32,000 nt of DNA from Candidatus Helarchaeota ASGARD archaeon Hel_GB_B (GTDB lineage: Archaea > Asgardarchaeota > Lokiarchaeia > Helarchaeales > HEL-GB-B), in contig SUPR01000023.1 of the NCBI GenBank assembly GCA_005191425.1, positions 6,601 through 38,600 on the forward strand, read 5' to 3'. Each line of letters begins with the position of its first letter. Position 1 is the stretch's first letter. The notes beneath the pieces are model-generated. The model searched no databases. It was not told where the DNA came from and saw only the letters and a list, made by a program, of their open reading frames with translations. Position numbers and translations under genes: made by a program. Below are positions 5,822-22,562 of this stretch, piece by piece.

Positions 5822-7036
5822 TTATTCTTCATCTAAATTTACTCTAAAATGGTCAATTTCGCCCCATTCTTTAGTTATACCCGCTAAAGTAGTTTCAAAT
5901 CCATGTAAAAATTCGCGTACTGATCTTTCGGGGTCTCTTGCCTGGGTAATATATCTACCAACAATGATTATGTCAGCTCCCTCTTTTAATGCATCGGTCA
6001 TTGTAATCGGAGATATCCCACCAGCTACTGCAACTAATAATTTTTTATCTAATCCTTTAATCTCCTTAATTAATTCCCATCTGGGTTTTGTATTGTTAGA
6101 CTCAGTATCAATTCCGCGGTGCAGGATGACAACATCTGGAATTTGTTTTAATGATTTTATTCGTTCAATAGGATTTTGAACATTCATCATGTCAATTATA
6201 GAATATATCCCTAACCTTTTTGCTTCGTGCATAAATATATTCAGAGTGCTATCACTTGCAAGTCCCGATGCAACAACAGCATCGGCAGTTTCTTCAAAAG
6301 CTAAGAGGACTTCCACACGACCTACATCTAAAGTCTTTAAATCACAAACTATGAAAGTACTTTTTGCAAGTTTTCTTAAGTCGCTAATAATTTTTGTGCC
6401 ATATTTTTTTAATAAAGGAGTGCCCACTTCTAATAAAATACGATCACTTTTCGGTATTTCTTTGATTATTTTTTCAATTCTCTCAAAATTTGTAATATCA
6501 AGTGCAATTTGAAGATATGGAGGTCTCCACAATCTTGGTACTGTAAAACCCATTATTGGATGCCTTGCACGGTCTTTGTCCCATAAAATACGTTCTAAAT
6601 TGGGTTTTTTATTTATAGCTCGAGTAATCGCTAGTTTCGTAGCACCATAATTATATGAATAAACTTTTCTAAGATCTGTTGCTTTTGGATGGATGAATAC
6701 GCTTACAATTAAGACCCAATCTTCGACCTTATCTTTTGGTATAATCCCTTCTTCTACAGAATCTGCAACTGCCTTTGCAACCGCATTTTGACCAGCACCA
6801 AATATTTTACTTGCATCTTCCATATTTTTTATTGTGACTTTTGGAATTATTAAGGTATATGGCTTAGGAGGTAAATTTGGTCTAATAACAGCTAATAATG
6901 GTGTATGTCCAGCTGATAATTGCGATAATGCATTTGCAAATGCCATTCCAACTGGGCCATCTTTATCGCCAATTAATAAATCAATATGAGCAACTTCCTC
7001 TCCTTGACCAAGTAATGCTTCACCAATCAAATACAT
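5822..7036 (-). CDS. fae-hps: Bifunctional formaldehyde-activating enzyme / 3-hexulose-6-phosphate synthase
   Basis: N-terminal Fae (IGEALLGQGEEVAHIDLLIG, GHTPLLAVIRPNL, VSVFIHP, NYGATKLA). C-terminal HPS (LQIALD, LEVGTPL, DLKTLDVG, LHRGID, VAGGI, VGRYIT). Confidence 0.93.
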   Translation of the reverse strand: MYLIGEALLGQGEEVAHIDLLIGDKDGPVGMAFANALSQLSAGHTPLLAVIRPNLPPKPYTLIIPKVTIKNMEDASKIFGAGQNAVAKAVADSVEEGIIPKDKVEDWVLIVSVFIHPKATDLRKVYSYNYGATKLAITRAINKKPNLERILWDKDRARHPIMGFTVPRLWRPPYLQIALDITNFERIEKIIKEIPKSDRILLEVGTPLLKKYGTKIISDLRKLAKSTFIVCDLKTLDVGRVEVLLAFEETADAVVASGLASDSTLNIFMHEAKRLGIYSIIDMMNVQNPIERIKSLKQIPDVVILHRGIDTESNNTKPRWELIKEIKGLDKKLLVAVAGGISPITMTDALKEGADIIIVGRYITQARDPERSVREFLHGFETTLAGITKEWGEIDHFRVNLDEE

Positions 7037-7550
7037 TTTTCATGCCTATTTTATTTTTATTTTACCATTATTTTTTTACAATTTAATTCAAGAATCCACG
7101 AATTAAAATTTTTTGTAATTTGAATTTATTTTCAGACTATAAATTAATTTGGATTAAAATTTTTTAATAAATAAATTTTAAAAAAAACAAGTTTTTAGAA
7201 TTGTGTTATTTTAAGTTTACTCCATAACTTAATTGGATCTAATAATTATAACCATTAGTGATAATAAATAATTAATAATAAATAATTATTTAATGAAACG
7301 AAAATCAAATTATAAAAAATACTAAATTAAAATAATAAAAATTAAACTATAAGTCTTTAATACAGATATTTTGATTATAAAATTAGATTTTATTTTAAGA
7401 GTAGCGATAAGAATAACAAAATAAACCATTATAAGAGTTAATTAATCCAAGATTAATATTACCAATTTCCTCATAACCTTTAAAAATATTCATTCTATTA
7501 ATACTCTAAAATAGTATAAAAACGATTAATTGGGCGTGTAGCTCAGCTAG

Positions 7551-7583
7551 AAAGGTAATAATTGAAAAATATACCTTGGTGAA
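7551..7583 (+). other. tRNA-Lys intron 1 (33 nt, D-loop, 18/19)
   Basis: Internal helix AAGGTA/TACCTT, a relaxed central helix, and removal restores G18-G19. Confidence 0.7.
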
Positions 7584-7595
7584 GCAGAGCGTTGG

Positions 7596-7625
7596 ACTAA
7601 CAGAACTATCTGCAGTTAGGACGAA
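7596..7625 (+). other. tRNA-Lys intron 2 (30 nt, anticodon stem, 30/31)
   Basis: Full hBHBh' motif: AGAG/CTCT, bulge AAG, central CGTT/GACG, bulge GGA, CTAAC/GTTAG. Confidence 0.85.
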
Positions 7626-7632
7626 GCTCTTA

Positions 7633-7648
7633 ACATATTTTGGGTGAA
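7633..7648 (+). other. tRNA-Lys intron 3 (16 nt, canonical 37/38)
   Basis: Central helix CTCT/GGTG (one U-U mismatch), 3-nt bulges and a short CA/TG hairpin. Removal restores a 7-nt anticodon loop. Confidence 0.78.
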
Positions 7649-7717
7649 ACTCAATGGCCGCGGGTTCGACTCCCGTCACGCCCGCCATCCTCCTCTGGAA
7701 AGCCATAAATATTAAGA

Positions 7718-7790
7718 GCCTCGGTGGCTTAGTAGGTAGAGCGACAGCCTCGTAAGCTGTAAGTCGGGGGTTCGAGCCCCCCTCGAGGCT
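7718..7790 (+). tRNA. tRNA-Thr(CGT), no intron, no encoded CCA
   Basis: Acceptor GCCTCGG/TCGAGGC with T73. Anticodon arm ACAGC-CTCGTAA-GCTGT. T-arm GGGGG-TTCGAGC-CCCCC. Starts 30 nt after tRNA-Lys. Confidence 0.95.
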
Positions 7791-7967
7791 TAAATCAATT
7801 TAAAAAGTCTAAATATAATTTAATAATAATTAAAAATGCTTTTTTAAAGATATAAACAATATATTTTATAATATTAGAGTTAATAGGTGAAATCAAATTA
7901 GAGAAAAACAAATTGCTATTAAATTAATATTATTAGAAACCTCAATAAAAAGCAAACAAAATTTATT

Positions 7968-8055
7968 GCGGGGGTGTCCGAGTCTGGTCAAAGGAGCAGG
8001 ACTGAGGCTCCTGTGGCGAAGGCCTGCAAGGGATCAAAGCCCTTCCCCCGCACCA
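7968..8055 (+). tRNA. tRNA-Leu(GAG), long variable arm, encoded CCA
   Basis: Acceptor GCGGGGG/CCCCCGC, A73, CCA. Anticodon arm CAGGA-CTGAGGC-TCCTG. Variable stem GGC/GCC. T-arm AAGGG-ATCAAAG-CCCTT. Confidence 0.9.
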
Positions 8056-12184: not shown

Positions 12185-14023
12185 TTATATTAAAAAAAGC
12201 TCAAATGGCTCTTGTTTTTTATATAAATTAATAATTGTCCTACCATTTTTAGAATTTTTTCTTATTTTAATATCGCCCCTATAATCTGATTTAATTGAAA
12301 GCAATTTATTACCTTTATGGACAATTTGGAAATATCGATTTGGATATTCATCGACTTCAAAATGGATGTATTTCTTGGTTAATTTAAATTGAAATTGGAC
12401 TTTTTGAGGAATAGTCGTAGTATCTTCTTTATCATAGAAAGTCCGCACATCAATATTAAACCCGAGTTTTGATTCTAATTTGTTAATATTAATACCATTT
12501 TTACCAATTATATTTGGTCGCATGGACTTATCAACATAAATTCTGATTCGCTGGTCAGATAAAATTTCTACATCAATTTTTCCATTAGGGACATATTTTT
12601 TAATTTCATTTTTTACTTTTTCAATTACCAGTTTACTTGCGGGAGATATAAATTTCTTAACTAAAGGCATAACAACAATATTATCTCCAAAAGTATAGAT
12701 TTCATATAAAAGTTTATTAGTATTAAAATCATATACTTCGATAATGGGTCGAGCAAGGTCAGATTCCATCATTCCCTTGGGTACTCTTACAGTCATTTTA
12801 AGATAATATACAGATTCAATTTTACCTTTGTTAATATGAATTATTGTATCGATAATTTGAGGTATCATACCAAATTCAATTTTCCTATTTACAAGCATTC
12901 GTTGTATTGCATCAATAGGTGCTGTTGCATGAATTACACCTATCATGCCGATCCCTGCTAGTCGCATATCTGCGTAAATTCCGAAATCTTTTGTTTTTCT
13001 AATTTCGTCAAAAATAGTATAGTCAGGGCGGACAAGAAGTATAATACTAGCGGTTTTTTCAAGGTCATTTTCCAATGGAGCATATTGAGTAACTCCTTTA
13101 GGAACTTGGAGGTCCCGAGGATTTTCCATAGTTTTTACAATTTTGTTTTGTTGTTCATAAAATGTAGCTAATGCACCAGCAAATGTTGATTTTCCGGATC
13201 CAGGTGGTCCACAAATTAAAATTCCTTCGGCAAGAGACCCAAATCGGTTTATTAAAGTTGGCGGTAGGTCATAATCATTTAGAGTTAATTTTTTAATTGG
13301 CTTTATTGCTGTAATTTCAATTGAGTCAGAAAAAGGAGGCTCGGTAATTGTAATACGCAAGTCATTTAATTGAGCTACAATTGCTCCTTTATATTCAATT
13401 TCAAGAAAACAGCCCTTTTCAGATTTTGCTTTTTCTGTTATTACCCGAATTAATTCTTCAATTGTGTGTAAATCAATTGGTTTCTCTCTTAATTTTATTA
13501 ATTTCCAATTTCCGGGAGTACCAACTTTAGCCATTGGTGGAAGACCCTCTTTAAGATGCAATGACATCGTATCCTTGGTAAAATATTCATTAATATCAAC
13601 TTTTGGATGACTTTTTTCCTCTTTAATTAATTTAACCTCAATACCTTGAGCTCTCGCAATATCACTCTGGATTCTATCACTTGTTATTAGTATAGAACCC
13701 GAAGGCTTGGCAAAATCACGTATTATACTATCTAACTCTCCTCCAGATGCTAATTTAATCTGTTCAAGTGTGGGACGATTACCAGTAATATCCAATTTAA
13801 TTTGTTTTTCCTTACACAAATTACGAATATTATTTAATTCTTTTATTCCTAAATGTCCAGTAAGTCGTCCCATATTTGCATGATTTTCGATTTCGGCTAT
13901 TACAATTTGAGGTATAATGATTTCTGAATTTTCTTTAATAAAACCTTCCTTTATTAATTTAGATACCCGCTGGTTCATTATGACTGAGGTGTCAACTACA
14001 TATTTTGTCATTAAAATCATCAA
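12185..14023 (-). CDS. PINA: PIN domain + AAA ATPase + KH domain (Holliday-junction branch-migration ATPase family)
   Basis: N-terminal PIN (VVDTSV, DRIQ), Walker A GPPGSGKST, ENPRDL, LLVRPDYTIFDEIRK, KH IIGKNG. Start may be the downstream ATG (MTKYVVD). Confidence 0.9.
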   Translation of the reverse strand: MMILMTKYVVDTSVIMNQRVSKLIKEGFIKENSEIIIPQIVIAEIENHANMGRLTGHLGIKELNNIRNLCKEKQIKLDITGNRPTLEQIKLASGGELDSIIRDFAKPSGSILITSDRIQSDIARAQGIEVKLIKEEKSHPKVDINEYFTKDTMSLHLKEGLPPMAKVGTPGNWKLIKLREKPIDLHTIEELIRVITEKAKSEKGCFLEIEYKGAIVAQLNDLRITITEPPFSDSIEITAIKPIKKLTLNDYDLPPTLINRFGSLAEGILICGPPGSGKSTFAGALATFYEQQNKIVKTMENPRDLQVPKGVTQYAPLENDLEKTASIILLVRPDYTIFDEIRKTKDFGIYADMRLAGIGMIGVIHATAPIDAIQRMLVNRKIEFGMIPQIIDTIIHINKGKIESVYYLKMTVRVPKGMMESDLARPIIEVYDFNTNKLLYEIYTFGDNIVVMPLVKKFISPASKLVIEKVKNEIKKYVPNGKIDVEILSDQRIRIYVDKSMRPNIIGKNGININKLESKLGFNIDVRTFYDKEDTTTIPQKVQFQFKLTKKYIHFEVDEYPNRYFQIVHKGNKLLSIKSDYRGDIKIRKNSKNGRTIINLYKKQEPFELFLI

Positions 14024-21965: not shown

Positions 21966-22562
21966 TCATAGTAAGACTTCCTTGCATTGATAATATGTGA
22001 CTTCCCCTTGGCGGTCGACTACGGTTAAGACCAGTTTTTTTCTCGAGCTTTTAGCTATTTTTGTAATTTTAGCTAGATCAACTAATTTAAGTGGAGTACC
22101 TTCAGTGATCGGATGTAATAAATATTTTGCTGCGGATTCTCCAGCGATTACACCTCTATCATATACTCTAAATTCGATACTTTCGCCGAAGCCCTGACGT
22201 ATTATATAACCTCTACTCCGAATATCTTTATAGACTAAATATTTTGTCCAGAAGTTAGGAATATTTTTTACAAAATATTCAGATAACTCTCTAAAATTAT
22301 AATTTTTATCATTTTCATCATATATATTGAGCCTTTTTCGTTCTAAGAGTAGAAGTGCTTCGAGTGGTTCTAGGATTAAAATATTATTTTCGAAATTTCC
22401 GTAATAACCTTTTTCATATAGTTTTTTAGATTTTTCGTCTTCAATATGGACTTTTAATCCTTTAAGAATACCATTATAGACTTCAATTTCTTTAGATTTT
22501 TCTTTTTCCGTGTTATTCGAGGACTTTAATTCCTTATTTTCGTTCAAATTTACCACATTCAT
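21966..22562 (-). CDS. endA: tRNA-intron endonuclease family protein, probable non-catalytic (structural) subunit
   Basis: LEPLEALLL, VYKDIRSRGY, FRVYDRG, RKKLVL.VVD..G.VTYY. Catalytic Tyr and His positions are not conserved. Confidence 0.88.
   Translation of the reverse strand: MNVVNLNENKELKSSNNTEKEKSKEIEVYNGILKGLKVHIEDEKSKKLYEKGYYGNFENNILILEPLEALLLLERKRLNIYDENDKNYNFRELSEYFVKNIPNFWTKYLVYKDIRSRGYIIRQGFGESIEFRVYDRGVIAGESAAKYLLHPITEGTPLKLVDLAKITKIAKSSRKKLVLTVVDRQGEVTYYQCKEVLL

What the first reader, a model, noticed from the sequence alone, without database searches (positions are those of the whole stretch)
7532..7687. tRNA-Lys(CTT) gene split by three introns (18/19, 30/31, 37/38)
Sequence: removing 33-, 30- and 16-nt inserts gives a textbook tRNA-Lys(CUU) cloverleaf, and each insert has BHB or relaxed-BHB geometry. 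Unspliced, the gene shows a misleading AAC triplet at the apparent anticodon position, so simple tRNA callers could miss or mislabel it. Established knowledge: triple-intron tRNAs and non-canonical positions are mainly described in Thermoproteales. Inference: this may be an under-described case in another lineage.
Basis: partly seen in the sequence, partly recalled or inferred. Interest (0 to 1): 0.75.

Follow-up and report, generated by a model that had tools for sequence, protein, structure and literature searches.

The report
Triple-intron tRNA-Lys gene, Asgard archaeon
This is a real lysine tRNA gene cut into four pieces by three short introns in an Asgard (Helarchaeota) archaeon, but heavily interrupted tRNA genes have already been published for other Asgard archaea, so it is a new example of a known kind.

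Summary
Removing window 7551-7583 (33 nt), 7596-7625 (30 nt) and 7633-7648 (16 nt) from 7532-7687 gives a 77-nt tRNA-Lys(CUU) with an encoded CCA. ARAGORN calls the spliced sequence as tRNA-Lys(ctt), with one G·U at the T-stem end. My own solver found the same three introns without being given the boundaries.

A same-genus genome has the ortholog with all three introns in the same places. Three genomes of a sister family carry only the 30/31 intron. Four more distant class-mates carry none of the three. So 18/19 and 37/38 look like recent gains.

The genome's statistics match the published Helarchaeota bin Hel_GB_B (Guaymas Basin) exactly. It encodes a two-paralogue EndA, including a catalytic subunit with the loop linked to broad substrate range, and RtcB. 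No second Lys-CUU gene was found.

At least 21 of 25 tRNA genes that I resolved in this genome are interrupted, and five carry three introns.

Earlier first readers in this scan flagged other multi-intron tRNAs in this same genome.

Multi-intron, non-canonical tRNA genes in Asgard archaea are already published (Valentin-Alvarado 2024; a 2026 preprint census). Verdict: a new member of a known kind, of modest interest. Splicing was not shown at the RNA level.

The parts
7532..7550 (+). Exon 1: acceptor 5' strand, U8 A9, D-stem 5' strand, and D-loop up to G18
   Evidence: The 5' exon pattern is conserved in order-mates.
7551..7583 (+). Intron 1 (33 nt), D-loop position 18/19, relaxed HBh' motif
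   Evidence: H helix AGCU/GGUG pairs at 3 of 4 positions, bulges AG|A and AA|G, h' of 6 bp, no outer h helix. The G001 ortholog has 4 of 4 (AGUU/GGCU). Absent from the Lys-CTT genes of G002, G004, G006, G005, G009, G013 and G032.
7584..7595 (+). Exon 2 (12 nt): G19 to G30
   Evidence: Identical at 12 of 12 positions in G001.
7596..7625 (+). Intron 2 (30 nt), anticodon-stem position 30/31, strict hBHBh' motif
   Evidence: H helix CGUU/GACG pairs at 4 of 4, bulges GG|A and AA|G, h' of 5 bp, h of 4 bp (A21-G24 with C32-U35). An intron sits at the same site in G001, G002, G004 and G006, with 4 of 4 H pairs and unrelated h' sequences.
7626..7632 (+). Exon 3 (7 nt): G31 to A37, carrying the anticodon CUU
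7633..7648 (+). Intron 3 (16 nt), canonical position 37/38, relaxed BHB motif
   Evidence: H helix CUCU/GGUG pairs at 3 of 4 (one U-U mismatch), bulges UA|A and AA|A, h' of 2 bp. For G001 I read CUCU/GGAG (4 of 4) from the, 60 sequences with the intron placed at 37/38; the solver itself placed it one nucleotide later (TCTT/GAGA, also 4 of 4). Absent from f2, f3 and f4 relatives.
7649..7687 (+). Exon 4: A38, anticodon-stem 3' strand, variable loop, T-arm, acceptor 3' strand, G73, and encoded CCA (7685-7687)
   Evidence: The best blastn-short match in the genome is to itself only.
7718..7790 (+). Neighbouring intron-less tRNA-Thr(CGU), 30 nt downstream
   Evidence: Lys-CTT lies near a tRNA-Thr(CGT) in G001, G002, G004 and G006 as well.
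7968..8055 (+). Neighbouring intron-less tRNA-Leu(GAG)
21966..22562 (-). EndA paralogue (198 aa), probably the structural beta subunit of the splicing endonuclease
   Evidence: PF01974 at 75 bits. In the alignment to the M. kandleri EndA structure 5x89, the catalytic His position (EHSKY) reads SAAKY.

Best explanation
Window 7532-7687(+) is the functional, and apparently only, tRNA-Lys(CUU) gene of the Asgard archaeon Hel_GB_B (Helarchaeota/Helarchaeales, Guaymas Basin sediment).

Inferred mechanism. The gene is transcribed as a precursor of about 156 nt, in which three AT-rich introns split the tRNA into exons of 19, 12, 7 and 39 nt. The introns are 33 nt at 18/19, 30 nt at 30/31 and 16 nt at 37/38. 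Each exon-intron boundary pair can fold into a bulge-helix-bulge motif, that is, two 3-nt bulges on either side of a 4-bp helix. The motif is strict for 30/31 and relaxed (HBh'-type) for 18/19 and 37/38. The genome's (alpha-beta)2-type splicing endonuclease EndA is expected to cut after the second nucleotide of each bulge, and RtcB is expected to join the exons. The catalytic EndA subunit carries the crenarchaeal-type loop that is linked to broad substrate range.

The outer helix of the 30/31 motif and the central helix of the 37/38 motif both use C32-U35. They cannot form together, so I infer that 30/31 is removed before 37/38.

Evolution. The 30/31 intron is older, being shared by two families of the order. 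The 18/19 and 37/38 introns were gained on the branch leading to this genus.

The sequence, its conservation and the presence of the enzyme genes are shown here. Transcription, cleavage sites and splicing order are inferred.
For: Identity and structure:
- The spliced product is called tRNA-Lys(ctt) by ARAGORN.
- Rfam's tRNA model scores the unspliced locus at 37.3 bits, above its 29-bit cut-off.
- My solver recovered the same introns without being given the boundaries, with 0 false solutions in 83 reversed-genome candidates.

Conservation:
- The same-genus genome G001 has the ortholog with all three inserts in the same places.
- Exons are 86% identical against 60% for introns and 66% for the 5' flank.
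- Acceptor-stem changes are compensatory (GGGCGUG/CACGCCC against GGACGCG/CGCGUCC).
- All three central helices pair at 4 of 4 positions in G001.
- The 30/31 intron in five genomes keeps a 4-of-4 H helix and a 4-10 bp h' helix built from unrelated sequences.

The locus is real DNA:
- Contigs from three separate metagenome runs carry it with no differences.
- Contigs carrying the identical neighbouring Fae-Hps protein (404 aa) are on record in JGI and NCBI assemblies.

The gene is needed:
- blastn-short found no other Lys-CTT gene in the 94%-complete assembly.
- AAG makes up 15.6% of Lys codons.

The machinery is present:
- Two EndA paralogues.
- The 192-aa one best matches the A. pernix catalytic subunit (2.5e-42), including the loop segment RKPKSTDFDRPL aligned to EKPRGADFEGPL.
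- The other paralogue lacks the catalytic His.
- RtcB scores 568 bits.
- Kaneta et al. 2018 (PMC5829648) report an (alpha-beta)2 EndA with this L1 loop across Asgard archaea.

Genome context:
- 21 of 25 resolved tRNA genes are interrupted, and 5 have three introns.
Against: - There are no RNA data. The only RNA run with any match gave a 36-nt T-arm fragment with 3 mismatches, probably from another organism.
- Introns 1 and 3 have imperfect central helices in this genome (3 of 4 pairs, with G-U pairs). Intron 1 has no outer exon helix.
- Thermodynamic folding does not favour the BHB conformers. Each sits 6-11 kcal/mol above the minimum-free-energy fold.
- The 37/38 boundary is not fixed by the mature sequence alone.
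- The assembly is a MAG (93.7% complete, 4.9% contamination), so a second, intact Lys-CUU gene on an unassembled piece cannot be excluded.
Confidence: 0.9

Rival explanations
1. Only two of the inserts (30/31 and 37/38) are spliced. The 33-nt D-loop insert would then stay in the mature tRNA as an expanded D-loop, or would make the gene a decaying pseudogene.
For: - Intron 1 has the weakest motif in this genome: 3 of 4 H pairs, two of them G-U, and no outer h helix.
- The 2026 preprint notes that D-arm inserts are the class with the fewest canonical BHB motifs (33%).
Against: - The insert lies exactly between the conserved G18 and G19, so leaving it in would break the D-loop/T-loop contact. This rests on established tRNA structure.
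- The G001 ortholog keeps an insert of the same length at the same site, with a 4-of-4 H helix and a 4-bp h', despite 39% sequence divergence.
- Exons remain under constraint, with compensatory stem changes.
- It is the only Lys-CUU gene found.
- Other tRNA genes in the genome carry D-arm inserts with the same geometry.
Confidence: 0.05
2. The splice sites differ from those proposed. For example, the third intron might be removed at 38/39 or 36/37, or cuts in the D-loop might be shifted, giving a slightly different mature tRNA or the same one by another route.
For: - Deletions at 36/37, 37/38, 38/39 or 39/40 all give the same mature sequence (direct reading).
- In G001 my solver preferred a 38/39 placement, which gives G38.
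Against: - Only the 37/38 register puts both cuts after the second nucleotide of 3-nt bulges flanking a 4-bp helix, in both G000 and G001 (and my reading of it).
- Introns 1 and 2 have no sliding ambiguity.
Confidence: 0.03
3. The three inserts are an assembly or binning artefact, or the locus belongs to a contaminating organism.
For: The genome is a MAG with 4.9% estimated contamination.
Against: - Three separate metagenome runs assemble the stretch 7450-8014 identically.
- The contig also carries typical genes of this genome.
- The same-genus MAG has the same gene order and the same gene structure.
Confidence: 0.01

Closest known systems
Multi-intron tRNA genes of Asgard archaea (Atabeyarchaeia and Freyarchaeia in Valentin-Alvarado et al. 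2024, PMC11291895; census preprint 10.64898/2026.10.13.758758)
   Same: - The host is an Asgard archaeon.
- Most tRNA genes are interrupted, and many carry two to four short (about 20-30 nt) introns at non-canonical sites, including the D-arm.
- Standard callers miss them.
- The background enzyme is an (alpha-beta)2 EndA.
- No paralogous donor copies of the introns were found in the genome.
- Supplementary Data 4 of the 2024 paper already lists a Lys-CTT gene with 3 introns in Atabeyarchaeia-1.
   Different: - The lineage is different: Helarchaeota/Helarchaeales, in the large class that holds most of the sampled relatives. Neither paper's text names it.
- My partial census gives about 1.5 introns per gene, against 2.2 in their focal families.
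- The exact set of positions (18/19 + 30/31 + 37/38) and the stepwise history of this gene have not been reported, as far as I could find.
Multiple-intron tRNA genes of Thermoproteales (Sugahara et al. 2007/2008; Fujishima et al. 2010)
   Same: - Up to three BHB or relaxed-BHB introns per gene at canonical and non-canonical positions.
- Processed by an (alpha-beta)2 EndA carrying the crenarchaea-specific loop.
   Different: - The phylum is different, and the host lives in cool sediment (about 10 C) rather than being a hyperthermophile.
- Thermoproteales introns form families that recur in different tRNAs, which has been read as transposition. None of the three introns here has a copy elsewhere in the genome.
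Canonical archaeal tRNA intron at 37/38 with a strict hBHBh' motif (Marck & Grosjean 2003)
   Same: - Intron 3 sits at 37/38.
- Intron 2 has the full hBHBh' geometry, with 3-nt bulges and a 4-bp helix.
   Different: - Two of the three introns are outside the anticodon loop.
- Two have a relaxed motif, which alpha4 or alpha'2 EndAs are not expected to cut.

Membership tests
Archaeal EndA-spliced (BHB) tRNA intron | Removing the insert restores a canonical cloverleaf with the conserved tRNA nucleotides | tested here: met
   ARAGORN calls the spliced sequence tRNA-Lys(ctt). My independent solver gives the same answer.
Archaeal EndA-spliced (BHB) tRNA intron | Two 3-nt bulges separated by a 4-bp helix at the exon-intron boundaries, or the relaxed HBh'/hBH form | tested here: met
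   Intron 2 is strict: H pairs at 4 of 4, h' is 5 bp and h is 4 bp. Introns 1 and 3 are relaxed in G000 (H pairs at 3 of 4, h' of 6 and 2 bp) and pair at 4 of 4 in G001.
Archaeal EndA-spliced (BHB) tRNA intron | The host encodes a splicing endonuclease able to cut relaxed or non-canonical motifs ((alpha-beta)2 with the L1/CSL loop, or epsilon2) | tested here: met
   There are two PF01974 paralogues. The alpha-like one matches the A. pernix catalytic subunit, including the loop with its Lys. The beta-like one lacks the catalytic His. This is homology only; the activity was not assayed.
Archaeal EndA-spliced (BHB) tRNA intron | The host encodes an RtcB-type 3'-phosphate RNA ligase to join the exons | tested here: met
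   PF01139 at 568.5 bits, with an open frame of 483 aa on contig C105.
Archaeal EndA-spliced (BHB) tRNA intron | A spliced mature RNA, or excised introns, observed | not testable with these tools
   No usable RNA run was available.
Heavily interrupted tRNA gene sets of Asgard archaea | The host is an Asgard archaeon | tested here: met
   Actin PF00022 scores 446 bits. The genome statistics are identical to Hel_GB_B in Seitz et al. 2019, Table 1.
Heavily interrupted tRNA gene sets of Asgard archaea | The majority of tRNA genes are interrupted, and many carry two or more introns at non-canonical sites | tested here: met
   Of 25 resolved genes, 21 have at least one intron, 12 have at least two and 5 have three. 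The reversed-genome control gave 0 of 83. The census is partial, because only genes that met my candidate filters were resolved (7-bp acceptor pairing, U8, a T-loop signature near the 3' end, pre-tRNA up to 240 nt).
Transposing tRNA-intron families (Thermoproteales type) | Related intron copies occur in other tRNA genes of the same genome | tested here: not met
   blastn-short of the three introns against the genome returned only the locus itself plus short AT-rich chance matches of 22 nt or less.
Intron-encoded C/D box sRNA (as in euryarchaeal tRNA-Trp) | C box (RUGAUGA) and D box (CUGA) inside the intron | tested here: not met
   A direct reading of the three intron sequences shows neither motif.

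The most novel reading that the evidence does not exclude
The Hel_GB_B genus of Helarchaeales would be a further, so far unreported hot spot of tRNA-intron accumulation among Asgard archaea, separate from the Jordiarchaeia and Atabeyarchaeia highlighted in the literature. In that reading, its Lys-CUU gene records a dated series. One older intron (30/31) is shared with a sister family. Two newer introns (18/19 and 37/38) were acquired since the genus split, and neither has a donor copy in the genome. The newest intron also overlaps the splice motif of the older one, which would impose an order of removal. Such a young, well-bracketed pair of gains could serve as a test case for the open question of how BHB introns arrive.
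Probability: 0.35. Interest if true: 0.45.

Novelty: new member of a known kind. Interest (0 to 1): 0.3.

Why it matters
- **Annotation.** Standard tRNA finders miss or mislabel this gene and most of its orthologs. Hel_GB_B and its relatives would therefore appear to lack tRNA-Lys(CUU) and roughly half of their tRNA set.
- **Biology.** The locus adds a lineage (Helarchaeota) and a clear stepwise history to the recently described heavy interruption of tRNA genes in Asgard archaea, the closest prokaryotic relatives of eukaryotes. The history runs from one intron, to three in this genus, while other class-mates carry a different T-loop intron or none.
- **Limits.** It does not change what is known about the mechanism.

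Tried and rejected
- **RNA evidence.** No listed holder of the locus is an RNA run. The single metatranscriptome with a small share of words gave only a 36-nt T-arm match with 3 mismatches. This says nothing about expression.
- **Thermodynamic support for the BHB folds.** Forcing each BHB costs 6-11 kcal/mol against the minimum-free-energy fold. Nearest-neighbour models penalise 3-nt bulges, so this is uninformative.
- **GC-island scan for hidden tRNA exons.** It gave 1,855 islands, which is too unspecific.
- **Rfam tRNA search of the whole genome.** It returned only 16-26 hits and did not list this locus, so it could not serve as a census.
- **Intron donor search.** blastn-short of the introns against the genome found no paralogues.
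- **16S rRNA for taxonomy.** None is present in the MAG.
- **Accession search in the literature.** No paper holds the related assembly accessions.
- **Supplements of the 2026 preprint.** They are not held, so I could not check whether Hel_GB_B is among its 90 genomes.
- **Sugahara et al. 2007 (PMC1852824).** The paper is not held.
- **Archaeal promoter.** A conserved GTRTAAAA lies 11-19 nt upstream of the mature 5' end in G000 and G001. Its spacing does not fit a TATA box for a leader-bearing transcript, and I left it unresolved.
- **Candidates of 176-240 nt.** They added no further tRNA genes.

Full report
**1. What is in the sequence**

Window 7532-7687(+) starts with GGGCGTGTAGCTCAGCTAG and ends with GGTTCGACTCCCGTCACGCCCGCCA. 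Standard ARAGORN finds only the two downstream genes, tRNA-Thr(CGT) at 7717-7791 and tRNA-Leu(GAG) at 7968-8055. The Rfam tRNA covariance model does hit 7532-7684, at 37.3 bits against a 29-bit gathering score. It does so by skipping 39 nt in the D-loop and 51 nt in the anticodon region.

Deleting 7551-7583 (33 nt), 7596-7625 (30 nt) and 7633-7648 (16 nt) gives a 77-nt sequence. ARAGORN calls it tRNA-Lys(ctt) with a complete cloverleaf, G18G19, U33, G73 and an encoded CCA. The mature sequence is 64.9% GC and the whole precursor is 48.1%, so the introns are about 32% GC. The genome average is 28%.

On the unspliced sequence, ARAGORN's default mode finds nothing. Its intron mode reports tRNA-Phe(gaa) with a 66-nt intron.

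**2. Is it more than chance?**

I wrote a solver that reads a cloverleaf left to right and may jump over inserts that satisfy a relaxed BHB rule. Given only 7532-7684, it returned exactly the three introns above and the anticodon CTT.

I then ran it genome-wide on acceptor-stem pair candidates of 175 nt or less. It solved 25 of 94 candidates in the real genome and 0 of 83 in the reversed genome.

The locus is not an assembly artefact. Contigs from three separate hydrothermal-vent metagenome runs cover 7450-8014 with no differences. Contigs carrying the identical neighbouring Fae-Hps protein are also on record in JGI and NCBI assemblies.

**3. Splice motifs**

I used the standard register, taken from my knowledge of Marck & Grosjean 2003. 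In it, each cut falls after the second nucleotide of a 3-nt bulge, and the bulges are separated by a 4-bp helix H.

| Intron | Position | H helix | Bulges | Flanking helices | Class |
|---|---|---|---|---|---|
| 1 | 18/19 | AGCU/GGUG, 3 of 4 pairs | AG\|A, AA\|G | h' 6 bp, no outer h | relaxed HBh' |
| 2 | 30/31 | CGUU/GACG, 4 of 4 pairs | GG\|A, AA\|G | h' 5 bp, h 4 bp (A21-G24 with C32-U35) | strict hBHBh' |
| 3 | 37/38 | CUCU/GGUG, 3 of 4 pairs (U-U mismatch) | UA\|A, AA\|A | h' 2 bp, h is the anticodon stem | relaxed |

Introns 1 and 2 have unique boundaries. Intron 3 can be slid over four positions without changing the mature sequence, and only the BHB register selects 37/38.

The h helix of intron 2 and the H helix of intron 3 both use C32-U35, so they exclude each other. 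The anticodon stem that serves as h for intron 3 is continuous only once intron 2 is gone. I therefore infer that 30/31 is removed before 37/38. This was not tested. Another first-stage note on the same stretch raises the same idea.

Thermodynamic folding does not favour the BHB conformers. That is expected for enzyme-stabilised bulges and is not informative.

**4. Relatives**

- **G001 (same genus).** It has the ortholog with inserts of 33, 31 and 16 nt at the same three sites.
  - Exons are 66/77 identical, introns 48/80, and the 5' flank 66/100.
  - The acceptor stem changed by compensatory substitutions.
  - All three H helices pair at 4 of 4 positions in G001 (for intron 3 at 37/38 this is my reading of the sequences).
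- **G002, G004, G006 (second family of the same order).** Their Lys-CTT genes carry only the 30/31 intron (28-29 nt). Each has a 4-of-4 H helix and a 5-10 bp h' built from unrelated sequence.
- **G005 (third family), and G009 and G032 (the large sister family).** Their Lys-CTT genes have none of the three introns but carry one insert in the T-loop.
- **G013.** Its gene is intron-less.

By parsimony, 18/19 and 37/38 were gained on the branch to this genus. The 30/31 intron arose either in the ancestor of the two families that share it, or in the ancestor of the order with a later loss. I did not build the species tree.

Lys-CTT lies near a tRNA-Thr(CGT) in G001, G002, G004 and G006, which supports orthology. 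ARAGORN misses Lys-CTT in all five loci scanned, including the single-intron ones.

None of the three introns has another copy in the genome.

**5. Host and machinery**

The genome has 182 contigs, 3,543,077 bp and 28.0% GC, and its longest contig is 72,379 bp. These are exactly the figures given for Helarchaeota bin Hel_GB_B in Table 1 of Seitz et al. 2019 (PMC6478937). That bin came from shallow Guaymas Basin sediment at about 10 C. An actin match of 446 bits confirms an Asgard archaeon. That paper never mentions tRNA.

The genome encodes two EndA paralogues.

- **Catalytic alpha subunit.** A 192-aa protein on contig C36 best matches the catalytic alpha subunit of the A. pernix (alpha-beta)2 enzyme (3p1z_B, 2.5e-42). 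The match includes the segment RKPKSTDFDRPL, aligned to EKPRGADFEGPL, which is the crenarchaea-specific loop with its lysine.
- **Beta-like subunit.** A 198-aa protein inside this window (21966-22562, minus strand) has the catalytic His position replaced, so it is probably the structural beta subunit.

Kaneta et al. 2018 (PMC5829648) report that Asgard archaea have an (alpha-beta)2 EndA with this L1 loop, and that the loop confers cleavage of relaxed motifs. RtcB is present at 568 bits.

**6. Is the gene needed?**

blastn-short of the mature sequence finds no other Lys-CTT gene. The only similar gene is tRNA-Lys(TTT) on contig C46. It has two introns of its own, one in the D-loop and one at 37/38. 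AAG makes up 15.6% of Lys codons, or 14.1 per 1000 codons, in 1,266 long ORFs.

**7. Genome-wide context**

The 25 resolved tRNA genes break down as follows:

| Introns per gene | Genes |
|---|---|
| 0 | 4 |
| 1 | 9 |
| 2 | 7 |
| 3 | 5 |

The five genes with three introns are Ser-CGA, Leu-CAG, Leu-CAA, Pro-CGG and this Lys-CTT. In total there are 38 introns, or 1.52 per gene.

The introns have a median length of 25 nt and are 29% GC. Twenty-seven have a full 4-bp H helix, 29 start with A, and 32 have A as the penultimate base.

This is a partial census. Only genes that met my candidate filters were resolved: 7-bp acceptor pairing, U8, a T-loop signature near the 3' end, and a pre-tRNA of up to 240 nt. 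ARAGORN and Rfam find only 16 tRNAs at their normal thresholds in a 94%-complete genome.

Several earlier first-stage notes on this genome describe three-intron Leu-CAG, Leu-CAA and Pro-CGG genes. My census gives the same intron lengths for these.

**8. Comparison with the literature**

- **Thermoproteales.** Multiple-intron tRNAs with at most three introns were first described in this order (PMC4033280).
- **Valentin-Alvarado et al. 2024 (PMC11291895).** They reported that 92-95% of tRNA genes in three complete Atabeyarchaeia and Freyarchaeia genomes have introns, that more than half have several, and that many are non-canonical. Their Supplementary Data 4 lists a 168-nt Lys-CTT gene with three introns in Atabeyarchaeia-1 and genes with four introns in other tRNAs.
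- **Preprint of October 2026 (10.64898/2026.10.13.758758).** It surveys 90 Asgard genomes and finds up to five inserts per gene. It shows that tRNAscan-SE misses D-arm inserts, infers repeated gains, and finds no intron copying between tRNA genes and no general arrival route. Its text names neither Helarchaeales nor Lokiarchaeia. Its supplements are not held.

**9. Verdict**

The observation and the structural interpretation are correct. The gene is almost certainly functional and spliced three times by the EndA/RtcB pathway.

The kind of feature is already known in Asgard archaea. What appears to be new is the host lineage (Helarchaeota Hel_GB_B), the particular set of positions, and the bracketed history of gains.

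I rate it a new member of a known kind, with interest 0.3.

Noticed in passing
window 21966-22562 (-): The second EndA paralogue (198 aa, PF01974 at 75 bits) lies about 14 kb from the tRNA cluster. Its catalytic His position is substituted, so it is probably the structural beta subunit. The catalytic alpha subunit is on contig C36 (L020:1474-2052, minus strand).
   Followed up: partly
G000 contig C46:2175-2296 (+) (L029:1501-1622): tRNA-Lys(UUU) of the same genome has two introns: about 27 nt in the D-loop near 19/20 and about 20 nt at 37/38. It has none at 30/31 and no encoded CCA. Intron-less or single-intron Lys-UUU genes occur in G003, G004, G006 and G002.
   Followed up: partly
G000 whole genome (contigs C36, C141, C166 and others): In my partial census, 21 of 25 resolved tRNA genes are interrupted and 5 have three introns (Ser-CGA, Leu-CAG, Leu-CAA, Pro-CGG, Lys-CUU). 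ARAGORN and Rfam recover only about 16 tRNAs at normal thresholds.
   Followed up: yes
G000, 38 census introns: The bulges are A-rich. The first intron base is A in 29 of 38 introns and the penultimate base is A in 32 of 38. This may reflect an EndA preference or simply the AT-rich composition of the introns.
   Followed up: no
L037 (G005), L039 minus strand (G032), L040 (G009): In other families of the class, tRNA-Lys(CUU) carries a single insert of about 30 nt in the T-loop (after TTCRA) instead of the D-loop or anticodon-arm introns. In G013 (L041) the gene is intron-less. Intron positions in this one gene therefore turn over between families.
   Followed up: partly
L027:1501-1622 (G002 contig C53): A 119-nt Lys-UUU-like gene has an odd D-loop (GGTTTTAGAGC) and two apparent inserts after the anticodon loop. 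It sits beside a more ordinary single-intron Lys-UUU copy (L036). It may be a divergent paralogue or a pseudogene.
   Followed up: no
G000 contigs C1:8017-8890 and C165:953-2662: ARAGORN in intron mode calls tRNA-Lys(ttt) with a 783-nt intron and tRNA-Ala(ggc) with a 1632-nt intron. These are probably false joins of separate exon-like pieces or of neighbouring tRNA genes.
   Followed up: no
window 5822-7036 (-): A fused Fae (formaldehyde-activating enzyme) and Hps/OMPdecase-family protein (404 aa) lies directly upstream of the tRNA cluster. The closest homologues outside the genus are labelled Bathyarchaeia and methanogen MAGs (57-67% identity).
   Followed up: partly
window 12185-14023 (-): A 612-aa protein combines a PIN domain, a T2SSE-type ATPase and KH domains.
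   Followed up: no
window 7502-7531 and L002:1471-1500: A conserved GTRTAAAA motif lies 11-19 nt upstream of the mature 5' end in both genus members. It is too close to be a standard TATA box if the transcript has a leader.
   Followed up: no
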